Below are positions 14,971 to 51,677 of a stretch of DNA of 64,000 nt, one piece after another. The stretch's first letter is position 1. Each line of letters opens with the position of its first letter. Position numbers and translations under genes: made by a program. The notes beneath the pieces were generated by a model, which worked only from the letters and a program-made list of their open reading frames with translations, was not told the DNA's origin and searched no databases. This stretch comes from a virus (Duplodnaviria > Caudoviricetes), in the IMG/VR virus record IMGVR_UViG_3300029288_000056, positions 224,001-288,000 of that record; one strand, given 5' to 3'.

Positions 14971-14980
14971 GCAAAAAAAA

Positions 14981-15065
14981 TAGAGAACAGGTTGAGGTGA
15001 GATATTGGGTTTCCCGGATTTTTGGTGGAAAATTTTATCAATGTAATCCCACAAGCATTTCTCTA
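14981..15065 (-). ncRNA. Y-RNA-family RNA, short form (85 nt), followed by 8 U
   Basis: TAGAGAAATGCTTGTGGGATTACAT...ATCTCACCTCAACCTGTTCTCTA; same terminal motif as the YrlA-type copies. Confidence 0.8.
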
Positions 15066-15338
15066 ATTTAAATCAAGTAAAGCTGGATTTGTATATCTAA
15101 ACTTCAGTCTACTGACCACGGACTCCACTTCACTAATGGCGCCAGAGTTTTCAGCGTTATAACCCTTACCATAAAGCTCCGCCAAAATCCTCTCCACACA
15201 ATCGATGGCTTTCTTAAGCGGTTTCCAACCCCAGTTCTCGTAAACTCCCGTCATTGCGGAATTTGCTACTCCGCGCGCTATGATCATCCACTCGTCGTAA
15301 GTGAACTCCATAGACCATTTTTCATTGAATGTTCTCAT
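15063..15338 (-). CDS. Hypothetical protein inside the Ro60/Y-RNA locus
   Basis: 91 aa ORF; its TAG stop is the first triplet of the downstream Y RNA. Confidence 0.75.
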   Translation of the reverse strand: MRTFNEKWSMEFTYDEWMIIARGVANSAMTGVYENWGWKPLKKAIDCVERILAELYGKGYNAENSGAISEVESVVSRLKFRYTNPALLDLN

Positions 15339-15825
15339 TCTTTTTCGCCACCTCGGGATTTTTTGCCGCTAAGTCCACAAATCTTAATAGACTCATGATT
15401 TCATTCTCCATTACCTTACGATCATCTTCGGTTGCTTCTTGTCTCTTTTTAAATAGATTAAATATAACCTGTGCCTGCATCTCTGTACATTTACCAGCCT
15501 TCATACACGTATTTATTTTGTCTATTAAAAGCTGCCCCACTTCGTGTTGATCCGCAAAGTCATATCTCAATCTATCATAGTGAGTGTGAATCTTCGGCTC
15601 AAAGTCTGTGGTGCGGTCAAATTTCATATTTCTGATCGTTTTTTGCTCAAAGCTTTCCTTATTTTCTTCCGCTAGTGTATCTGCGACTTTGCGTACAAAG
15701 CTTCCCAAATCGTCTATCGCACTGATAACTTCTTTTGATATTTCGTCGCCACTTTCGATCAGTCTGTCGACACTATACTTAATCTTATCCTTAAGTTTTG
15801 CAAGTTCTTCAATAAATTCCATCAT
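15322..15825 (-). CDS. Helical hypothetical protein inside the Ro60/Y-RNA locus (start re-assigned to 15825)
   Basis: GGAGGTGA RBS before MMEFIEEL. Confidence 0.8.
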   Translation of the reverse strand: MMEFIEELAKLKDKIKYSVDRLIESGDEISKEVISAIDDLGSFVRKVADTLAEENKESFEQKTIRNMKFDRTTDFEPKIHTHYDRLRYDFADQHEVGQLLIDKINTCMKAGKCTEMQAQVIFNLFKKRQEATEDDRKVMENEIMSLLRFVDLAAKNPEVAKKNENIQ

Positions 15826-15844
15826 ATTCACCTCCGAAATAAAA

Positions 15845-15967
15845 TACCAGAACAGAATCGGCGAGATTTGCACCTCATTTCTGAGGTTGCCGGTTATTAG
15901 TCGGCCGCTTTTGCAGGGTATTCCCCTGCTGCAATTGTAATGTAATCCCTAACCAGCATTTCTGGTA
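15845..15967 (-). ncRNA. Y-RNA-family RNA with a three-hairpin, non-tRNA internal domain (123 nt)
   Basis: TACCAGAAATGCTGGTTAGGGATTACAT...ATCTCGCCGATTCTGTTCTGGTA; hairpins GCAGGG/CCCTGC, GCCG/CGGC, ACCTCA-GAAA-TGAGGT. Confidence 0.8.
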
Positions 15968-15972
15968 AAACT

Positions 15973-16107
15973 TTTCGGGACAGAGTTAGTGAGTCGTATT
16001 TACGCGCTCCACCAGTTGAGCTATCTCGGCATAATGAGCCGAGAGTGGGATTCGAACCCACAACCACGTGCTCCATAGGCAATGTATACCCACAAGCATT
16101 CCCGAAA
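15973..16107 (-). ncRNA. yrlA: YrlA-type Y RNA with circularly permuted tRNA-like domain (135 nt)
   Basis: Terminal stem TTTCGGGA/TCCCGAAA; order is T arm (GTGGG-TTCGAAT-CCCAC), loop-closed acceptor (TCTCGGC/GCCGAGA), D arm (TAGCTCAACTGGTGGAGC); adjacent to the Ro60 gene. Confidence 0.92.
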
Positions 16108-16113
16108 TATGGA

Positions 16114-16166
16114 ACGGACAATTGGTGACTAATCCGGTTGCGGTAAGATATAGCCACCAATGCCGT
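16114..16166 (-). other. Long hairpin between Ro60 stop and YrlA
   Basis: ACGGCATTGGTGGCTA pairs with TAGTCACCAATTGTCCGT. Confidence 0.6.
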
Positions 16167-16169
16167 GTA

Positions 16170-17732
16170 TTACAAATCTATACTCTCTATAACCTCAACG
16201 AACTGATCCACATCGTTTCCGTATTTCATGAACATACTTATCACGTTATATACGGAATCGCTGAACCCGCCCACGTTGAGAATTTCTTTACTGTTATGCG
16301 CTTGAGTGGACGTATTTGGCGCCAAGTCTATACAAACTAACTTTGCACCCGGATTGTGTTGCTTAAACTTCTTCCACTCATCCATCGTTGAAGTTCCTCG
16401 GTAGCTGTCCTGACTATCCACCCATGATTCGTTGTCAGATAGATAGATGCAAAGATCGCCCTTCTTGCCGTTTTGATTCAAAAAGGCCAATGCTGTGGAG
16501 CAACTTGTGCCTCCACCGCTACTACCTCCGATTTCTCTTGCGTTTGTAGCAATAGAATCTAGAGGGTTGATCCCACTCATAAGTTGTGCTCTGGTCGCAA
16601 ACTGTATAACTTCTGCAGTTGGATTCTTGCGCAAAATAGAAGCCGCAAACAGACCCGCCACGTTACAACAACTGACTTTAGAAGTAGCACTTCCTCTTTG
16701 GCCGGTCACGGGAGAACTCATAGACCCAGAGACATCAACGAACAGCCAAACCTTTCCCTCAATCTCAGGTATATTCTCCGCCGAATAGTCAAGAGCCTTT
16801 TGTAGCGCTATGGTTATCTCGCGTGGCATTTCGCTTTGCGCGAACATGTAAGCCGTAAACAGTTGATAAGGAAATGTTCTGGACTTTTTCACAAGTTCAG
16901 CATCCATCAACTGACTAACAACGTATTGCACCATTTCTTTGTCTTCAAAGACTTTGTGACGTAGAAGCGTATTGAGATTGATTCTCAATTGGTTCCAAGT
17001 CATAGTCTTTGCGAGCGCCTTCCAATGTGCATCGGTAAGGCTCAGGGACGTTAGCATCTCAAATGGAACTTCTGGAAACGCGACAGACTCCCCGTTAGTA
17101 AGAGCTTTCTTAAACAACTCGTACGCTTTTAGGTCGTCTGGTAGTAAAACGTCGTTAAACTCGCGGCCCAACACGTAGTTGATCGTATTCTCGCGTTCTT
17201 TGTTTACGGGTTTTGGGTGAACCATCTTTATAATATCAGACATTGATGGATCACTTCCTGTGACGAAAGCCACGTAAGAATCGGTCCAACTGTTGATCAA
17301 GCCGGCAAGTTGTTTCTTGAGTGAAGTACCAAAGGATTGGCGACCGAATTTATTCGAACGAATTGCTTGTACGAAGTTTCGTATCATCTTTCCGTTGGTT
17401 ACGACCTTTGGAAACGCCTTTTTAAATTGAGCCAAAGCCTCTGGAGTCTTGCAACCCGCTAGATAAGCCAATAGCGCAACCGGCATGTCCTTCATCAAAC
17501 CACGAGTCGCAGAATAGACCGCGGTCTTGGCGATAAAGGTAGGATCAACTTGAGGTAGATACTTGTAGAGATGGGCGAGTTGGTCTCCCCCACTTGCGTA
17601 GTAGGTGCCGTTAAAGCAGCCGGTTACAGCTAACTGCGCGATGGCGTGCTTTGCACTCATTGAATACGCAATTCCACCTGCGTCATTTACTGCGTCTGCA
17701 GGTTTGACACCGTTAAACACGTTCTTGTTCAT
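16170..17732 (-). CDS. rsr: Ro60 (TROVE + vWA) RNA-binding protein
   Basis: NDAGGIAY, AQLAVTGCFNGTYY, MKDMP, IIKMVHPKP, RINLNTLLRH, FPYQLFTAY, MIDAS DVSGSMS, SDNESW, VGGFSD. Confidence 0.96.
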   Translation of the reverse strand: MNKNVFNGVKPADAVNDAGGIAYSMSAKHAIAQLAVTGCFNGTYYASGGDQLAHLYKYLPQVDPTFIAKTAVYSATRGLMKDMPVALLAYLAGCKTPEALAQFKKAFPKVVTNGKMIRNFVQAIRSNKFGRQSFGTSLKKQLAGLINSWTDSYVAFVTGSDPSMSDIIKMVHPKPVNKERENTINYVLGREFNDVLLPDDLKAYELFKKALTNGESVAFPEVPFEMLTSLSLTDAHWKALAKTMTWNQLRINLNTLLRHKVFEDKEMVQYVVSQLMDAELVKKSRTFPYQLFTAYMFAQSEMPREITIALQKALDYSAENIPEIEGKVWLFVDVSGSMSSPVTGQRGSATSKVSCCNVAGLFAASILRKNPTAEVIQFATRAQLMSGINPLDSIATNAREIGGSSGGGTSCSTALAFLNQNGKKGDLCIYLSDNESWVDSQDSYRGTSTMDEWKKFKQHNPGAKLVCIDLAPNTSTQAHNSKEILNVGGFSDSVYNVISMFMKYGNDVDQFVEVIESIDL

Positions 17733-17771
17733 TTTTATTCTCCTTTTTAGGAAACAGTTATGAAAAGATTA

Positions 17772-17846
17772 AGATGGGACAGGGGTTTGCTGAGATACGG
17801 TTTTAATTTACAGTTTAAATGTAATCCCAAGCGAGCATTCCCATCT
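17772..17846 (-). ncRNA. Y-RNA-family RNA, minimal form (75 nt), upstream of Ro60
   Basis: AGATGGGAATGCTCGCTTGGGATTACAT...GTATCTCAGCAAACCCCTGTCCCATCT. Confidence 0.8.
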
Positions 17847-17889
17847 ACAACACTAACACGGATTATGCAAAATAATCCCCTATTATTTT

Positions 17890-17960
17890 CAGGAGTTAAA
17901 GGATTTGAACCCTTACCGGATGTTTTGGAGACATCCATGCTACCATTACACCAAACTCCT
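17890..17960 (-). tRNA. tRNA-Trp(CCA)
   Basis: AGGAGTT/AACTCCT acceptor, GATGT-CTCCAAA-ACATC, AAGGG-TTCAAAT-CCTTT, G73. Confidence 0.93.
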
Positions 17961-17965
17961 ATGTA

Positions 17966-39688: not shown

Positions 39689-40341
39689 ATCGTCCTTAGT
39701 TGGTTAATTTTACTTCCATCCCACGTATGTTCGTCGAACTCAATATCGAACTGCGGGTGCTTTAACTTACCCCTCAAATAACCGTGTTTATTGTAGCGCT
39801 TCACGATTATACCTTCTGACATTCCTGAACCGTAGTTTGAGACTTTAGGGATCAGATCAAACAATTCCTTAGGCTCGTAGTTCCCCACTGAAACAAGAGG
39901 GACCTGTTCAAGACCGTACTTGATGCAAAAAGCGTTTCGTTCATCATAATCCAAAAAGCGCTTTCCATCCCAAACATCAAAGGCTAGGAAGTAAGACGGA
40001 AGTTTATCGTAAAAGAGTGTGTGAACACAGTACAACCACTCACCGTAAACCAAGGAGCCGATTGGAAGTTTCATAAGTTGGTTAAAATTCTCATACATGG
40101 CCCACGCTAAAAAGCGTTGGTACTGTAGATGTTCAGACTGACCCACGAGGCTTCCGCGTTTTTGGAGGTGGAGGCCCTGTTTGTGCCGTATGATCCCGAC
40201 ATTCGCGCCATCCATTTTCTCCTCAACCACAACTCGCCCAGCCAGAAGTTGAGTAACCTCTTTGCTAGACAGAGTGAATCTGCCCGCAGCAGGATACTGT
40301 GGGACAGATATGCGAAAAGTTTTATCGTAGTGTCTAAACAC
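39685..40341 (-). CDS. RNA ligase family protein (nucleotidyltransferase domain)
   Basis: EEKMDGANVGI, YGEW, HTLFYDKLPSYFLAFDVWD, EGIIVK, GKLK. Confidence 0.88.
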   Translation of the reverse strand: MFRHYDKTFRISVPQYPAAGRFTLSSKEVTQLLAGRVVVEEKMDGANVGIIRHKQGLHLQKRGSLVGQSEHLQYQRFLAWAMYENFNQLMKLPIGSLVYGEWLYCVHTLFYDKLPSYFLAFDVWDGKRFLDYDERNAFCIKYGLEQVPLVSVGNYEPKELFDLIPKVSNYGSGMSEGIIVKRYNKHGYLRGKLKHPQFDIEFDEHTWDGSKINQLRTI

Positions 40342-41479: not shown

Positions 41480-41571
41480 CAGGACCGCTAGGACTCGAAC
41501 CTAGAGCCTCCAAGGGATTACTCGTCAGTAATCCGTTTAAGGAGCGGGCTTACCATTAGCCCTACAGCCCT
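41480..41571 (-). ncRNA. tRNA-like RNA with anticodon loop replaced by an extended hairpin
   Basis: AGGGCTG/CGGTCCT acceptor, GGGCT-AATGGTA-AGCCC D arm, CTCC...GGAG enclosing GGATTACT-GACG-AGTAATCC, CTAGG-TTCGAGT-CCTAG T arm. Confidence 0.8.
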
Positions 41572-42493: not shown

Positions 42494-43861
42494 TTATCTT
42501 TCGGGGTATTTTTGCAGCAACTCCTTCAGACGTTCGGTCGTATTAAGGCTCGGGTCCTCCAAAACCTGTTCCAAAAGCCAATCCAAAACCTTACCGACCT
42601 CTGGCCCCGGCTTCAAAAGCATCATCGTCATTACGTCAAATCCGTTAAGGGCCAAGTCTGTAATCTTAAACGCAGCCTCGGACATTTCCTGATCCTCAAT
42701 TCGTCGTGCCAAGTCTGCGAGATCCTTAATCTTTTCAACTGCCGGTTCGGTCTCAAGGGCCTGAGCATCAGCCAAAAGAATCTTCCACAAAGACCAAACT
42801 CTTTCCTTACCGACTCTGTTGATTAACCGTCTCACACTGGCGTTAGACCAGCTTCGGTCGTACTTGCTCATGTGCTCCCGAATCAACATCAAGACACTTT
42901 CTGTCAAGTCGGTAGGTTGCTTCATTCTCATCATAATATCAAGGGCCATCTTCTCGGAAGCGATTTCGTGCTCATAGAAGTGAACCGCACCTTCCTCAAA
43001 AATGTTCCCACCCTCTACCGTCCTTGTCAGCGGCTTTCCGATGTCGTGTAGCACCGCTGCCCAACGAAGGTCGAGGTCGTTGTCCACGACGTCGCAGGCA
43101 ATCATCAAGTGGCCGAAAACGTCATGCTTATGCCACCTGTTTTGTGTTACACCAGCGCATCTACTCAGCTCTGGAAGCAACAGTGCCAAAAGACCCGTAG
43201 ACAGAAGCAGTCTAAACCCTCTTGACGGATCTGGCCCCACAATCATCTTGTTAAGCTCTTGAGTGATTCGCTCTTGAGCTACGTTTTCCATAACGCCAAG
43301 GCAAAGCCTCTTAATAGACTCAAGTGTCTCGGCCTCGATAGTGAATCCGAGGACCGTGGCAAACCGGCAGGCCCTTAGCATTCTAAGAGCGTCTTCTTGG
43401 AATCGCTTACCGGGATCTCCAACTGCCCGAACGATCATGTTTTGAATGTCTTCCATTCCGCCATGATTATCGAGAAACACGTCTTCGATCGGGTTGTATG
43501 CCATAGCGTTGATGGTAAAGTCTCGTCTCATCAGATCCTTCTCGATGGACTGACTAAATACCACAAAGTCAGGATGGCGCCCGTCAGAGTAATCACTATC
43601 TTCCCTAAAGGTCGTTACCTCGATCGGCCGTTGATCCGTCACTACGGTTACGGTTCCAAATGGTACACCGGTGGCCTTTACTCTATCACCGAAGATATCG
43701 AACACCTCAGACCAGCGTGCATTCGTAGCAATATCCCAATCGTGAACTGGGCGCGCCATAACAAGGTCTCGAACGGCTCCACCTACAAGCCAACTCTCAA
43801 AACCGTGTTGCCTCAGAGTCTTACAGACCCCAAGAACGTCGTGTGGAATTCTTTCTCTCAT
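42494..43861 (-). CDS. cca: Class II tRNA nucleotidyltransferase (CCA-adding) with HD domain
   Basis: VGGAVRD, DWDIAT, EVTTFR, DGRHP, RRDFTINAMA, EDALRMLRACRF, LHDIGKP. Confidence 0.95.
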   Translation of the reverse strand: MRERIPHDVLGVCKTLRQHGFESWLVGGAVRDLVMARPVHDWDIATNARWSEVFDIFGDRVKATGVPFGTVTVVTDQRPIEVTTFREDSDYSDGRHPDFVVFSQSIEKDLMRRDFTINAMAYNPIEDVFLDNHGGMEDIQNMIVRAVGDPGKRFQEDALRMLRACRFATVLGFTIEAETLESIKRLCLGVMENVAQERITQELNKMIVGPDPSRGFRLLLSTGLLALLLPELSRCAGVTQNRWHKHDVFGHLMIACDVVDNDLDLRWAAVLHDIGKPLTRTVEGGNIFEEGAVHFYEHEIASEKMALDIMMRMKQPTDLTESVLMLIREHMSKYDRSWSNASVRRLINRVGKERVWSLWKILLADAQALETEPAVEKIKDLADLARRIEDQEMSEAAFKITDLALNGFDVMTMMLLKPGPEVGKVLDWLLEQVLEDPSLNTTERLKELLQKYPER

Positions 43862-51360: not shown

Positions 51361-51487
51361 TAGAGAACAGAAATTGTGAGTACGTTTATGCGTTCTATCT
51401 GTTGAACTACCGCCCTTGTGGGGCGGGGGAGATTCGCACTCCCAGCTCATCCTTGAAATGGAATGTAAACCCACGAGCATTTCTCTA
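51361..51487 (-). ncRNA. yrlA: Second YrlA-type Y RNA (127 nt), ~34 kb from the Ro60 gene
   Basis: TAGAGAAATGCTCGTGGGTTTACAT...GTACTCACAATTTCTGTTCTCTA; T arm GGGAG-TGCGAAT-CTCCC, closed acceptor CCGCCC/GGGCGG, D arm TAGTTCAACAGATAGAAC. Confidence 0.88.
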
Positions 51488-51523
51488 ATACTTACCCTCG
51501 GCCACCTAGGACTACCTAGGATT

Positions 51524-51677
51524 TTAGAATATCTGGCAAGGATTCAAACCTTGCATGTGGCCTCGTTTTATGGAATTACGCTTTGCTTGTGCACTCATAA
51601 AGCGGTCCCTCCAATGGATACTAGTTCCACATCATCCTCGTCGATCGCGTCTACTCTTTCCGCCACAGACATTCTAA
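51524..51677 (-). ncRNA. tRNA-shell RNA 1 (~154 nt)
   Basis: TTAGAATGTCTG/CAGATATTCTAA, TGGCGGAAAGAGTAGACGC D arm, ~90-nt insert, GCAAGG-TTTGAAT-CCTTGC. Confidence 0.82.

What the first reader, a model, noticed from the sequence alone, without database searches (positions are those of the whole stretch)
14981..17846. Phage Ro60 with a modular Y-RNA repertoire: one shared stem, swappable internal domains
Seen: four RNAs around the Ro60 gene, plus a fifth at 51361, share [stem]-GRAATGCT-N-GGGNNTACAT ... RNCTCRN-N-CTGTYC-[stem]. The closing stems covary (TAGAGAA, TACCAGAA, TTTCGGGA, AGATGGGA). The interiors differ: permuted tRNA (two copies), a three-hairpin junction, and two short AU-rich loops. 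Established: bacterial Ro60 (Rsr) binds Y RNAs, YrlA RNAs mimic tRNA and occur in some phages, and Deinococcus Yrn1 tethers Rsr to PNPase. Inference: the shared stem is the Ro60 site, and one phage Ro60 is retargeted to different partners by exchanging Y RNAs.
Basis: partly seen in the sequence, partly recalled or inferred. Interest (0 to 1): 0.85.

Follow-up and report, generated by a model that had tools for sequence, protein, structure and literature searches.

The report
Phage Ro60 with eight Y RNAs
An uncultured 297-kb phage encodes the ring-shaped RNA-binding protein Ro60 and seven (probably eight) small RNAs that share one Ro60-type docking stem but carry different "heads"; this is a real and unusually large Y-RNA set, and similar sets of three to seven turn out to be common beside related Ro60 genes in bacteria and phages.

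Summary
The motif AATGCT-N3-6-GGGNNTACAT occurs 5 times in the window, with 0 expected by chance, always on the Ro60 strand. The whole 297-kb genome has 7 firm copies and 1 probable copy.

The ORF at 16170-17732(-) is a full-length Ro60/Rsr. It has a vWA_Ro60 and a TROVE domain and matches D. radiodurans Rsr (2NVO) at E 4e-19.

All copies share an outer stem, an AUGCU internal loop, an inner stem, an invariant UACAUU and a 3' CUG. Both stems covary. This handle matches the Rsr-binding end of Rfam YrlA.

The heads differ:
- C and E are YrlA-type permuted tRNA mimics.
- F, outside the window, holds a non-permuted tRNA body.
- B has three hairpins and G has two.
- A, D and H are minimal hairpins.

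A relative phage carries nine such RNAs behind its Ro60. Across 70 phage and 80 bacterial Ro60 loci, my models and a sequence-pattern scan found several hundred handles. All lie on the Ro60 strand except one pattern-scan hit.

The idea that different heads recruit different partners is the standard Y-RNA model and remains untested here. The scan has noted similar arrays on other DNA. I found no published description of them.

The parts
17772..17846 (-). Y RNA D. A minimal hairpin type of 75 nt, lying 40 nt upstream of the Ro60 start and 42 nt downstream of tRNA-Trp.
   Evidence: Motif match. Models R1 54.2 bits and R2 46.1 bits. The fold shows stem S1, stem S2 and an AU-rich loop, z -2.2.
16170..17732 (-). 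Ro60/Rsr gene, 520 aa, with a TROVE ring and a vWA domain.
   Evidence: Pfam vWA_Ro60 1e-16 and TROVE 3.2e-5. PHROG 850 1.4e-36. Full-length match to Rsr 2NVO at 3.9e-19 and to phiLo Ro60 9KOP at 1e-15. D333, S335 and S337, which fit a DxSxS MIDAS motif, are invariant among 22 homologs.
15973..16107 (-). Y RNA C. YrlA-type: handle plus T arm, a 7-bp acceptor-like hairpin and a D arm.
   Evidence: Rfam YrlA 52.8 bits, E 2.5e-10, model positions 1-114. R1 93.3 bits. Fold z -3.3.
15845..15967 (-). Y RNA B. The handle encloses a three-hairpin head. It starts 5 nt after C ends.
   Evidence: Motif match. R1 84.7 bits. Fold -43.9 kcal/mol, z -4.4, with S1 and S2 in the minimum-free-energy structure.
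15322..15825 (-). ORF of 167 aa counted from the ATG behind a GGAGGTG ribosome-binding site. It lies inside the operon and its function is unknown.
   Evidence: ORF list and sequence. No Pfam or PHROG family. No homolog in 150 other Ro60 loci.
15063..15338 (-). ORF of 91 aa inside the operon, function unknown.
14973..15065 (-). Y RNA A (14981-15065), a short AU-rich head, followed by a run of eight T that probably ends the operon.
   Evidence: Motif match. R1 52.7 bits and R2 40.8 bits. T run and a downstream promoter-like site at 14970-14942.
51361..51487 (-). Y RNA E. YrlA-type with a deviant T loop (UGCGAAU) and a D loop that lacks GG. It lies 34 kb from Ro60, directly upstream of tRNA-Tyr.
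   Evidence: Rfam YrlA 43.6 bits, E 2.2e-6. R1 91 bits. Sequence.
17889..17961 (-). tRNA-Trp immediately upstream of D, probably in the same transcript.
   Evidence: ARAGORN and Rfam tRNA 61.5 bits.

Best explanation
These are Y RNAs of a phage Ro60 ribonucleoprotein system. The phage makes Ro60 and seven to eight small RNAs. Each RNA closes its 5' and 3' ends into the same two-helix handle: outer stem S1 of 7-8 bp, a 5' loop AUGCU opposite a 3' loop ending in CUG, inner stem S2 with core GGGAU/AUCUC, then an invariant UACAUU.

The handle is the Ro60 docking site. This is inferred from its homology to the Rsr-binding end of YrlA and from its strict linkage to Ro60 genes. The head beyond the handle varies. 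Two heads are permuted tRNA mimics (YrlA type). One is a tRNA body in natural order, with its acceptor stem replaced by the handle. One is a three-hairpin head, one a two-hairpin head, and three are minimal hairpins like YrlB or Yrn2.

Four genes lie in one operon with Ro60, in the order tRNA-Trp, D, Ro60, C, B, two small ORFs, A, T-run. The others sit beside tRNA genes or alone, and F has its own promoter-like site.

The likely function is inferred, not shown. The RNAs compete for one Ro60 ring. Those with heads tether it to different factors, probably tRNA-recognising or RNA-decay and repair enzymes. The minimal hairpins mainly gate or stabilise the ring. The phage also encodes RtcB, a CCA-adding enzyme, three Rnl-type ligases and many tRNAs. 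The system therefore most likely serves RNA surveillance or repair during infection.
For: - Motif count: 5 in the window against 0 expected.
- Model R1 finds exactly 7 copies in the genome, at 52.7-93.3 bits. An eighth scores 24.6 bits with model R2 with filters off.
- S1 pairs 7 of 7 in seven of the eight copies, using five different stem sequences. The S2 core flips A-U to U-A in C and E.
- C aligns end to end with Rfam YrlA, handle included.
- F's interior matches Rfam tRNA positions 5-66 at 41.4 bits. Its D and T arms match those of YrlA-type RNAs, but in the opposite order.
- The Ro60 identity is firm.
- A phage whose Ro60 is 43% identical has nine tandem handles downstream of its Ro60. 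They include two YrlA types and one F type that is 77% identical to F.
- On 28 minimal hairpins from other loci, 82% of cells are paired against 58% in shuffles. There are 103 cells with changes on both sides against 32, reached by 0 of 500 shuffles. Slid registers give at most 56%.
- Strand linkage: R1 gives 100 of 100 hits on the Ro60 strand in phage loci. R2 gives 127 of 127, two of them the window's own A and D. Bacterial loci give 163 and 113 hits, all on the Ro60 strand. The sequence-pattern scan gives 401 hits on that strand and 1 on the other.
- RNA-repair context: RtcB, CCA-adding enzyme and Rnl ligases.
Against: - There is no expression, end-mapping or binding data.
- C and E fall below Rfam's gathering score of 69.
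- The published GNCGAAN0-1G motif is not met exactly. The copies read GGGAAUG or AGAAAUG.
- A and G do not fold better than shuffles (z -1.1 and -1.2), and A's inner stem is absent from its minimum-free-energy fold.
- The heads of A, B, D, G and H have no detectable relatives elsewhere, so a specific partner for each is unsupported.
- H overlaps a promoter-like site and is weak.
- The covariation counts were made on hits chosen by models that reward pairing, so they are partly circular.
Confidence: 0.78

Rival explanations
1. Only the tRNA-like copies (C, E and perhaps F) are functional Y RNAs. The others (A, B, D, G, H) are decaying duplicates that keep the handle by recent descent and have no role.
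For: The heads of A, B, D, G and H have no homologs in other loci. A and G fold no better than shuffles. A and E share one stem sequence, and B, F and G share another, which fits recent duplication.
Against: Minimal-hairpin handles are the commonest class beside Ro60 in other genomes: 60 of 136 phage hits and 67 of 254 bacterial hits. Across lineages they show compensatory changes in both stems and invariant loop bases. A relative phage keeps six non-tRNA copies. Experimentally Rsr-bound hairpin Y RNAs are published: YrlB and Yrn2 (PMC4201824).
Confidence: 0.1
2. The handle is a processing or stability cassette, for example a nuclease or terminator structure used to excise small RNAs from tRNA-type transcripts, and works without Ro60.
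For: In this phage E, F and D abut tRNA genes. Four copies lie 34-210 kb from Ro60. A's closing stem followed by eight T resembles a terminator.
Against: Unpaired bases (AUGC, UACA, the G before the 3' strand) are invariant while the stems vary, which is the pattern of a protein-binding internal loop. The handle clusters on the Ro60 strand within a few kb of the Ro60 gene in 45 of 70 phage loci and 76 of 80 bacterial loci. It is homologous to the Rsr-binding end of YrlA.
Confidence: 0.08
3. The repeats are chance or a generic dispersed repeat with no RNA function.
For: None beyond the lack of expression data.
Against: Zero matches expected by chance, covarying stems, YrlA and tRNA model matches, and conservation in distant genomes.
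Confidence: 0.02

Closest known systems
Bacterial and phage YrlA Y RNAs with Rsr (Rfam RF02553; Chen et al. 2014, PMC4201824; YrlA tRNA-like domain structure, bioRxiv 10.1101/312249)
   Same: The gene sits on the Ro60 strand next to the Ro60 gene. The handle has AUGCU, a GGG-containing inner stem and a UG before the 3' strand. C and E carry a T arm, a closed acceptor-like stem and a D arm. Phage examples are published (22 bacteriophages).
   Different: There are seven to eight RNAs instead of one or two. Scores fall below Rfam's gathering cut-off. The GNCGAA motif reads GGGAA or AGAAA, with the normally G-C pair changed to A-U in six of eight copies. Four copies lie far from Ro60. Most heads are not tRNA-like.
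YrlB (Salmonella, M. smegmatis) and Yrn2 (D. radiodurans): hairpin Y RNAs found only by immunoprecipitation
   Same: A, D and H are long hairpins with a small loop and no tRNA body, encoded beside a YrlA-type RNA.
   Different: Published YrlB could not be traced by homology beyond Salmonella serovars (PMC4201824). Here a single model (R2) finds such hairpins in dozens of phage and bacterial loci, often several in tandem.
D. radiodurans Yrn1 (tethers Rsr to PNPase)
   Same: F also differs from YrlA in the order of its D-like and T-like arms. The tether idea comes from Yrn1.
   Different: Yrn1's handle resembles metazoan Y RNAs, whereas F carries the YrlA-type handle. F's body matches the tRNA model closely (41.4 bits). 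No PNPase link is shown here.
Thermus phage phiLo Ro60 with Yrl1 and Yrl2 (PMC12135203)
   Same: A phage-encoded Ro60 with more than one phage-encoded Y-like RNA next to the gene. Binding, and a complex with host PNPase, were shown in vitro.
   Different: phiLo has two RNAs against seven to eight here. Its Ro60 is distant (PDB 9KOP, E 1e-15). No tRNA-like heads are reported for Yrl1 or Yrl2 in the passages I read.
Metazoan Y RNA families (human Y1, Y3, Y4, Y5)
   Same: One Ro60 and several paralogous RNAs with a conserved terminal stem and variable loops that bind different proteins.
   Different: The handle sequence is unrelated. Those RNAs are eukaryotic Pol III genes and have no tRNA mimicry.

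Membership tests
Ro60/Rsr protein family | TROVE (HEAT-repeat ring) domain | tested here: met
   Pfam TROVE 23.7 bits against a cut-off of 23. PHROG 850 1.4e-36 over residues 14-499. 2NVO Rsr aligned over residues 15-502, E 3.9e-19.
Ro60/Rsr protein family | C-terminal vWA domain with a MIDAS motif | tested here: met
   vWA_Ro60 61.7 bits, E 1e-16. D333, S335 and S337, which fit DxSxS, are invariant in 22 homologs.
Ro60/Rsr protein family | Closed ring structure that binds Y RNA on its outer surface | not tested
   No structure prediction was run. This is inferred from full-length homology to solved Ro60 proteins.
YrlA (Rfam RF02553) | Score at or above Rfam's gathering threshold of 69 bits | tested here: not met
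   C scores 52.8 bits and E 43.6 bits. E-values are 2.5e-10 and 2.2e-6, with full model coverage 1-114.
YrlA (Rfam RF02553) | tRNA-like head in the order T arm, closed acceptor-like stem, D arm | tested here: met
   This holds for C and E by the model alignment and the folds. It does not hold for A, B, D, F, G or H.
YrlA (Rfam RF02553) | GNCGAAN0-1G motif near the 5' end (PMC4201824) | tested here: not met
   The copies read CGGGAAUG (C), UGGGAAUG (D) or AGAAAUG/UAAAUG in the others. Only the GAAUG core and the following C are kept.
YrlA (Rfam RF02553) | Encoded within about 4 kb of Ro60 on the same strand | tested here: met
   C lies 63 nt downstream of Ro60. E is on the same strand but 34 kb away.
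Y RNA (functional class) | 5' and 3' ends pair into a long stem that holds a conserved Ro60-binding element | tested here: met
   S1 and S2 are present in all eight copies. Covariation is seen across 28 relatives. The handle is homologous to the YrlA handle.
Y RNA (functional class) | Physically bound by Ro60 and dependent on it for stability | not testable with these tools
   This needs immunoprecipitation or a gel-shift assay.
tRNA (RF00005), considered for F's head | Complete cloverleaf with a 7-bp acceptor stem and a 7-nt anticodon loop | tested here: not met
   The match covers model positions 5-66 only, at 41.4 bits. About 3 acceptor pairs remain, and the anticodon arm is a 4-bp stem with a 5-nt loop. 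F's head is a tRNA mimic, not a tRNA.

The most novel reading that the evidence does not exclude
Ro60 particles of an entire clade of bacteria and phages are many-RNA systems. One docking handle presents up to eight or nine interchangeable heads, including a tRNA body in both circular permutations. This phage uses that set to steer its own RNA-repair enzymes (RtcB, CCA-adding enzyme, Rnl ligases) or host nucleases onto different damaged RNAs, or to decoy host tRNA-cutting defences.
Probability: 0.25. Interest if true: 0.8.

Novelty: new variant of a known kind. Interest (0 to 1): 0.6.

Why it matters
Y RNAs are understood as two-part adaptors: a Ro60 handle plus an effector head. In bacteria, however, only one or two per species have been studied, and the partner of the tRNA-like head is still unknown.

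This genome, and the roughly 150 loci gathered around it, show that sets of three to nine handles with different heads are common beside this type of Ro60. The commonest head is a minimal hairpin that has no Rfam family.

The same handle carries a tRNA body in either circular permutation. That gives natural swap experiments for asking what the head recruits.

In a phage that also carries RtcB, a CCA-adding enzyme, RNA ligases and many tRNAs, the system is a candidate for RNA repair or counter-defence. Myxococcus phage Mx1 and cultured Undibacterium and Massilia strains offer tractable systems.

Tried and rejected
- **Ninth candidate at genome 164551-164669(-).** It has the 5' motif but no convincing 3' half, and R2 with filters off gives E > 1. 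Rejected.
- **Exact-motif scan of IMG/VR.** Of the 118 stretches found, only L080 and L047, each with two matches, looked like real Y-like RNAs. A strict two-sided filter passed no convincing Y RNA in any of them, so most matches look like chance at 14 specified bases.
- **MAFFT alignments of the full-length RNAs.** They misplace the 3' inner strand of A and G. RNAalifold on alignment A5 recovered only S1. I set the S2 columns by hand from a pairing matrix.
- **First loose sequence-pattern scan.** It gave about 90 false hits in the genome. It was replaced by a tighter one with 1 wrong-strand hit in 1.6 Mb.
- **Megablast of the locus against 50,697 phage records.** No match.
- **Mx1 phage.** R1 found nothing. 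R2 and the Rfam YrlA model later found three weak to moderate hits 8-11 kb from its Ro60.
- **The two ORFs inside the operon and four neighbouring genes.** No homolog in the other Ro60 loci.
- **Heads of A, B, D, G and H.** No sequence relatives among 373 heads.
- **The look-up of encoding contigs.** Closed.
- **The 2020 Annual Review on bacterial Ro60.** Not held. Four literature searches found no description of arrays of more than two bacterial or phage Y RNAs.
Full report
**What is there**

The window is bases 224001-288000 of a single 297,328-bp viral contig, estimated 94% complete. Nearly all genes and the 11 tRNA genes in the window lie on the minus strand.

The ORF at 16170-17732(-) encodes a 520-aa Ro60/Rsr protein:
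- Pfam vWA_Ro60 at 1e-16 and TROVE at 3.2e-5.
- PHROG 850 "RNA-binding protein" at 1.4e-36.
- Full-length matches to D. radiodurans Rsr (2NVO, 3.9e-19), Thermus phage phiLo Ro60 (9KOP/9L5Y, 1e-15), and human and Xenopus Ro60.
- D333, S335 and S337, which fit a DxSxS MIDAS motif, are invariant among 22 homologs.

**The repeated RNA**

All are on the Ro60 strand, and none appeared in 100 shuffles. The whole genome has seven.

A covariance model built from the seven (R1) finds exactly those seven in the genome, at 52.7-93.3 bits. A second model (R2), built only from short relatives in other genomes, recovers D, A and G. With filters off it adds an eighth, H, at genome 30868-30928(-), with 24.6 bits and E 2e-5 in 4.2 kb. 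H is probable only, because it overlaps a promoter-like site. A further 5'-motif match near genome 164,600 has no 3' half and was rejected.

Coordinates, all on the minus strand:

| RNA | Position |
|---|---|
| A | window 14981-15065 |
| B | window 15845-15967 |
| C | window 15973-16107 |
| D | window 17772-17846 |
| E | window 51361-51487 |
| F | genome 140116-140244 |
| G | genome 29557-29647 |
| H | genome 30868-30928 |

**Anatomy**

Every copy has, in order:
- an outer stem S1 of 7-8 bp
- the loop AUGCU (AUGCA in H)
- an inner stem S2 with core GGGAU/AUCUC
- an invariant UACAUU
- a variable head of 11-85 nt
- the 3' strand of S2
- a 6-9-nt loop ending in CUG (CCG in G)
- the 3' strand of S1

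S1 pairs 7 of 7 in seven of the eight copies, using five different sequences. The fourth S2 pair is A-U in most copies and U-A in C and E. The outer S2 pairs are GU/AC, GUA/UGC, GGU/GCC or GCU/AGC. So both helices are kept by compensatory change, while the unpaired AUGC, UACAU and the G before the 3' strand stay fixed.

Minimum-free-energy folds show S1 plus S2 for B, D, E, F, G and H. Folding is significantly better than shuffles for B, C and F (z -3.0 to -4.4) and nominally better for D, E and H. It is not better for A and G.

**The heads**

- **C and E** align over the whole Rfam YrlA model, at 52.8 bits (E 2.5e-10) and 43.6 bits (E 2.2e-6). Both are below the gathering score of 69. C has a canonical T arm, a 7-bp acceptor-like hairpin and a D arm with GG. 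E has a deviant T loop and no GG in its D loop.
- **F** is different. Its interior matches the Rfam tRNA model at positions 5-66 with 41.4 bits. The order is D arm, a short stem-loop in place of the anticodon arm, then T arm, so the handle replaces the top of the acceptor stem. Its D and T arms match those of YrlA-type RNAs from other loci, but in swapped order.
- **B** has three hairpins and **G** has two.
- **A, D and H** are minimal hairpins with AU-rich loops.

**Gene arrangement**

The order is tRNA-Trp (17961-17889), D, Ro60, C, B, a 167-aa ORF, a 91-aa ORF, A, then eight T and a promoter-like site for the next gene. I read this as one operon from which the RNAs are cut out. That reading is inferred.

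E lies directly upstream of tRNA-Tyr. F lies directly upstream of a tRNA that I read as tRNA-His, and it has a TTGACT-17-TAATAT site ending 8 nt before its 5' end.

**Relatives**

The nearest phage Ro60 proteins, at 43% identity, are in Myxococcus phage Mx1 and in a 150.9-kb IMG/VR contig.

The IMG/VR contig carries nine tandem handles directly behind its Ro60 (L122 11576-12746). Two are YrlA types and one is an F type 77% identical to F. Six have other or minimal heads.

Mx1 has two YrlA-like hits and one handle 8-11 kb from its Ro60.

Using an alignment of 22 homologs, I collected 74 IMG/VR loci and 80 bacterial loci with Ro60 relatives at 37-53% identity. The bacterial ones include Pyrinomonadaceae, Polyangiaceae, Phycisphaerae, Undibacterium and Massilia.

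| Search | Loci | Hits | On the Ro60 strand |
|---|---|---|---|
| R1, E <= 1 | phage | 100 | all |
| R2, E <= 0.1 | phage, plus the window | 127 | all |
| R2, E <= 0.01 | bacterial | 163 | all |
| R1, E <= 0.01 | bacterial | 113 | all |
| Sequence-pattern scan | both | 402 | 401 |

By the pattern scan, 45 of 70 distinct phage loci have at least one handle, 25 have at least three, and the maximum is 8. Of the 80 bacterial loci, 76 have at least one, 54 have at least three, and the maximum is 7. These counts cover only the few kb fetched on either side of each Ro60 gene.

I checked one case by eye: Undibacterium sp. TS12 has six in a row.

Twenty-eight minimal hairpins from different loci align well. 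All seven S1 pairs and five of seven S2 pairs show changes on both sides. Paired cells are 82% against 58% in shuffles, reached by 0 of 500 shuffles, and at most 56% in slid registers. Because the hits were picked by structure-aware models, these counts are partly circular. The strand and neighbourhood linkage is independent of that.

F-type heads recur rarely, in two Pyrinomonadaceae genomes assembled from metagenomes.

**What is known**

- Chen et al. 2014 (PMC4201824) found YrlA-related sequences next to Ro60 in 254 bacterial species and 22 phages. They assigned the 5' GNCGAAN0-1G region to Rsr binding and found a second, hairpin-type Y RNA (YrlB, Yrn2) only by immunoprecipitation. They noted that YrlB could not be traced by homology, and they expected more Y RNAs.
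- Y RNAs are described as modular, with a Ro60 stem and an effector-binding head. Yrn1 tethers Rsr to PNPase.
- Thermus phage phiLo Ro60 binds two phage Y-like RNAs and forms a complex with host PNPase in vitro.
- Jumbo-phage surveys list the Ro/TROVE protein among RNA-repair genes.

I found no paper describing arrays of more than two bacterial or phage Y RNAs, or a family for the handle alone. The 2020 review was not held. Earlier notes of this scan report similar many-RNA arrays beside more divergent Ro60-like genes in other phages, cyanobacteria and giant viruses. These are unpublished AI notes. Here the protein is a canonical Ro60 and the handle is the canonical YrlA handle.

**Interpretation**

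- **Shown:** a bona fide Ro60 gene, and seven to eight paralogous structured-RNA genes with a covarying common handle and different heads. The handle is homologous to the YrlA handle. The same design recurs beside Ro60 across many genomes.
- **Inferred:** the handle binds this Ro60, the RNAs are expressed and processed, and the heads recruit different factors or merely gate the ring.

The phage also encodes RtcB, whose Pfam match is split within one 750-aa frame, a CCA-adding enzyme and three Rnl-family ligases. This echoes the bacterial rsr-yrlBA-rtcBA operon and makes an RNA surveillance or repair role the most likely setting. C's 7-bp acceptor-like stem is the feature that lets RNase P cut M. 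smegmatis YrlA, so C may be cut and CCA-tailed. That is a speculation and can be tested.

**Local peculiarities**

- The base pair next to the loop is G-C in 25 of 28 relatives but A-U in six of the eight copies here. The motif therefore reads GAAAUGCU ... CUGUUC instead of CGAAUGCU ... CUUGUC.
- Half of the copies lie far from Ro60.

**Verdict**

The structural part of the reading is supported, and the functional part remains the standard model applied by analogy. This is a new, rich variant of a known system rather than a new kind of system. Its main value is the size and diversity of the RNA set, and the evidence that such sets are the rule in this Ro60 clade.

Noticed in passing
L047 1325-1575 (-) and 852-871 (-) (IMGVR_UViG_3300010430_000377): A Y-type handle appears to close an insert of about 250 nt that begins with a 23S-rRNA-like word (ACGGTCCTAAGGTAGCG). 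A second handle lies nearby. The same contig fragment carries a tmRNA (100.8 bits) and a YrlA-like hit.
   Followed up: no
genome 291176-293347 (-), outside the window: The RtcB Pfam match is split into two pieces inside one 750-aa open frame, which suggests an intein or another insertion.
   Followed up: no
window 43427-43792 (-) and 39790-40236 (-): A CCA-adding enzyme (PolyA_pol domain, 124 bits) and an Rnl-family RNA ligase (103 bits) lie in the window. Two further Rnl-family genes lie elsewhere in the genome.
   Followed up: partly
window 41480-41571 (-): ARAGORN calls a 92-nt 'tRNA-???' with a two-base anticodon. Rfam's tRNA model does not report it.
   Followed up: no
window 15322-15825 (-) and 15063-15338 (-): Two small ORFs (167 and 91 aa) sit between Y RNAs B and A inside the Ro60 operon. 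They have no Pfam or PHROG family and no homolog in about 150 other Ro60 loci.
   Followed up: partly
L122 12510-12640 (+): A GC-rich stretch that looks structured lies between the eighth and ninth Y-like RNAs of the relative phage. It matches neither model.
   Followed up: no
L273 5560-6160 (+) (Undibacterium sp. TS12): Six tandem Y-like RNAs follow rsr in a cultured bacterium. Five are minimal hairpins, and most units are preceded by a similar spacer (GTTTTGAATA or a close variant), possibly a repeated promoter or processing signal.
   Followed up: partly
window 51488-51600 (-): Directly upstream of Y RNA E there is a T-arm-like hairpin (GCAAGGTTTGAATCCTTGC). E is thus the last non-tRNA gene of that RNA operon before tRNA-Tyr.
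   Followed up: no
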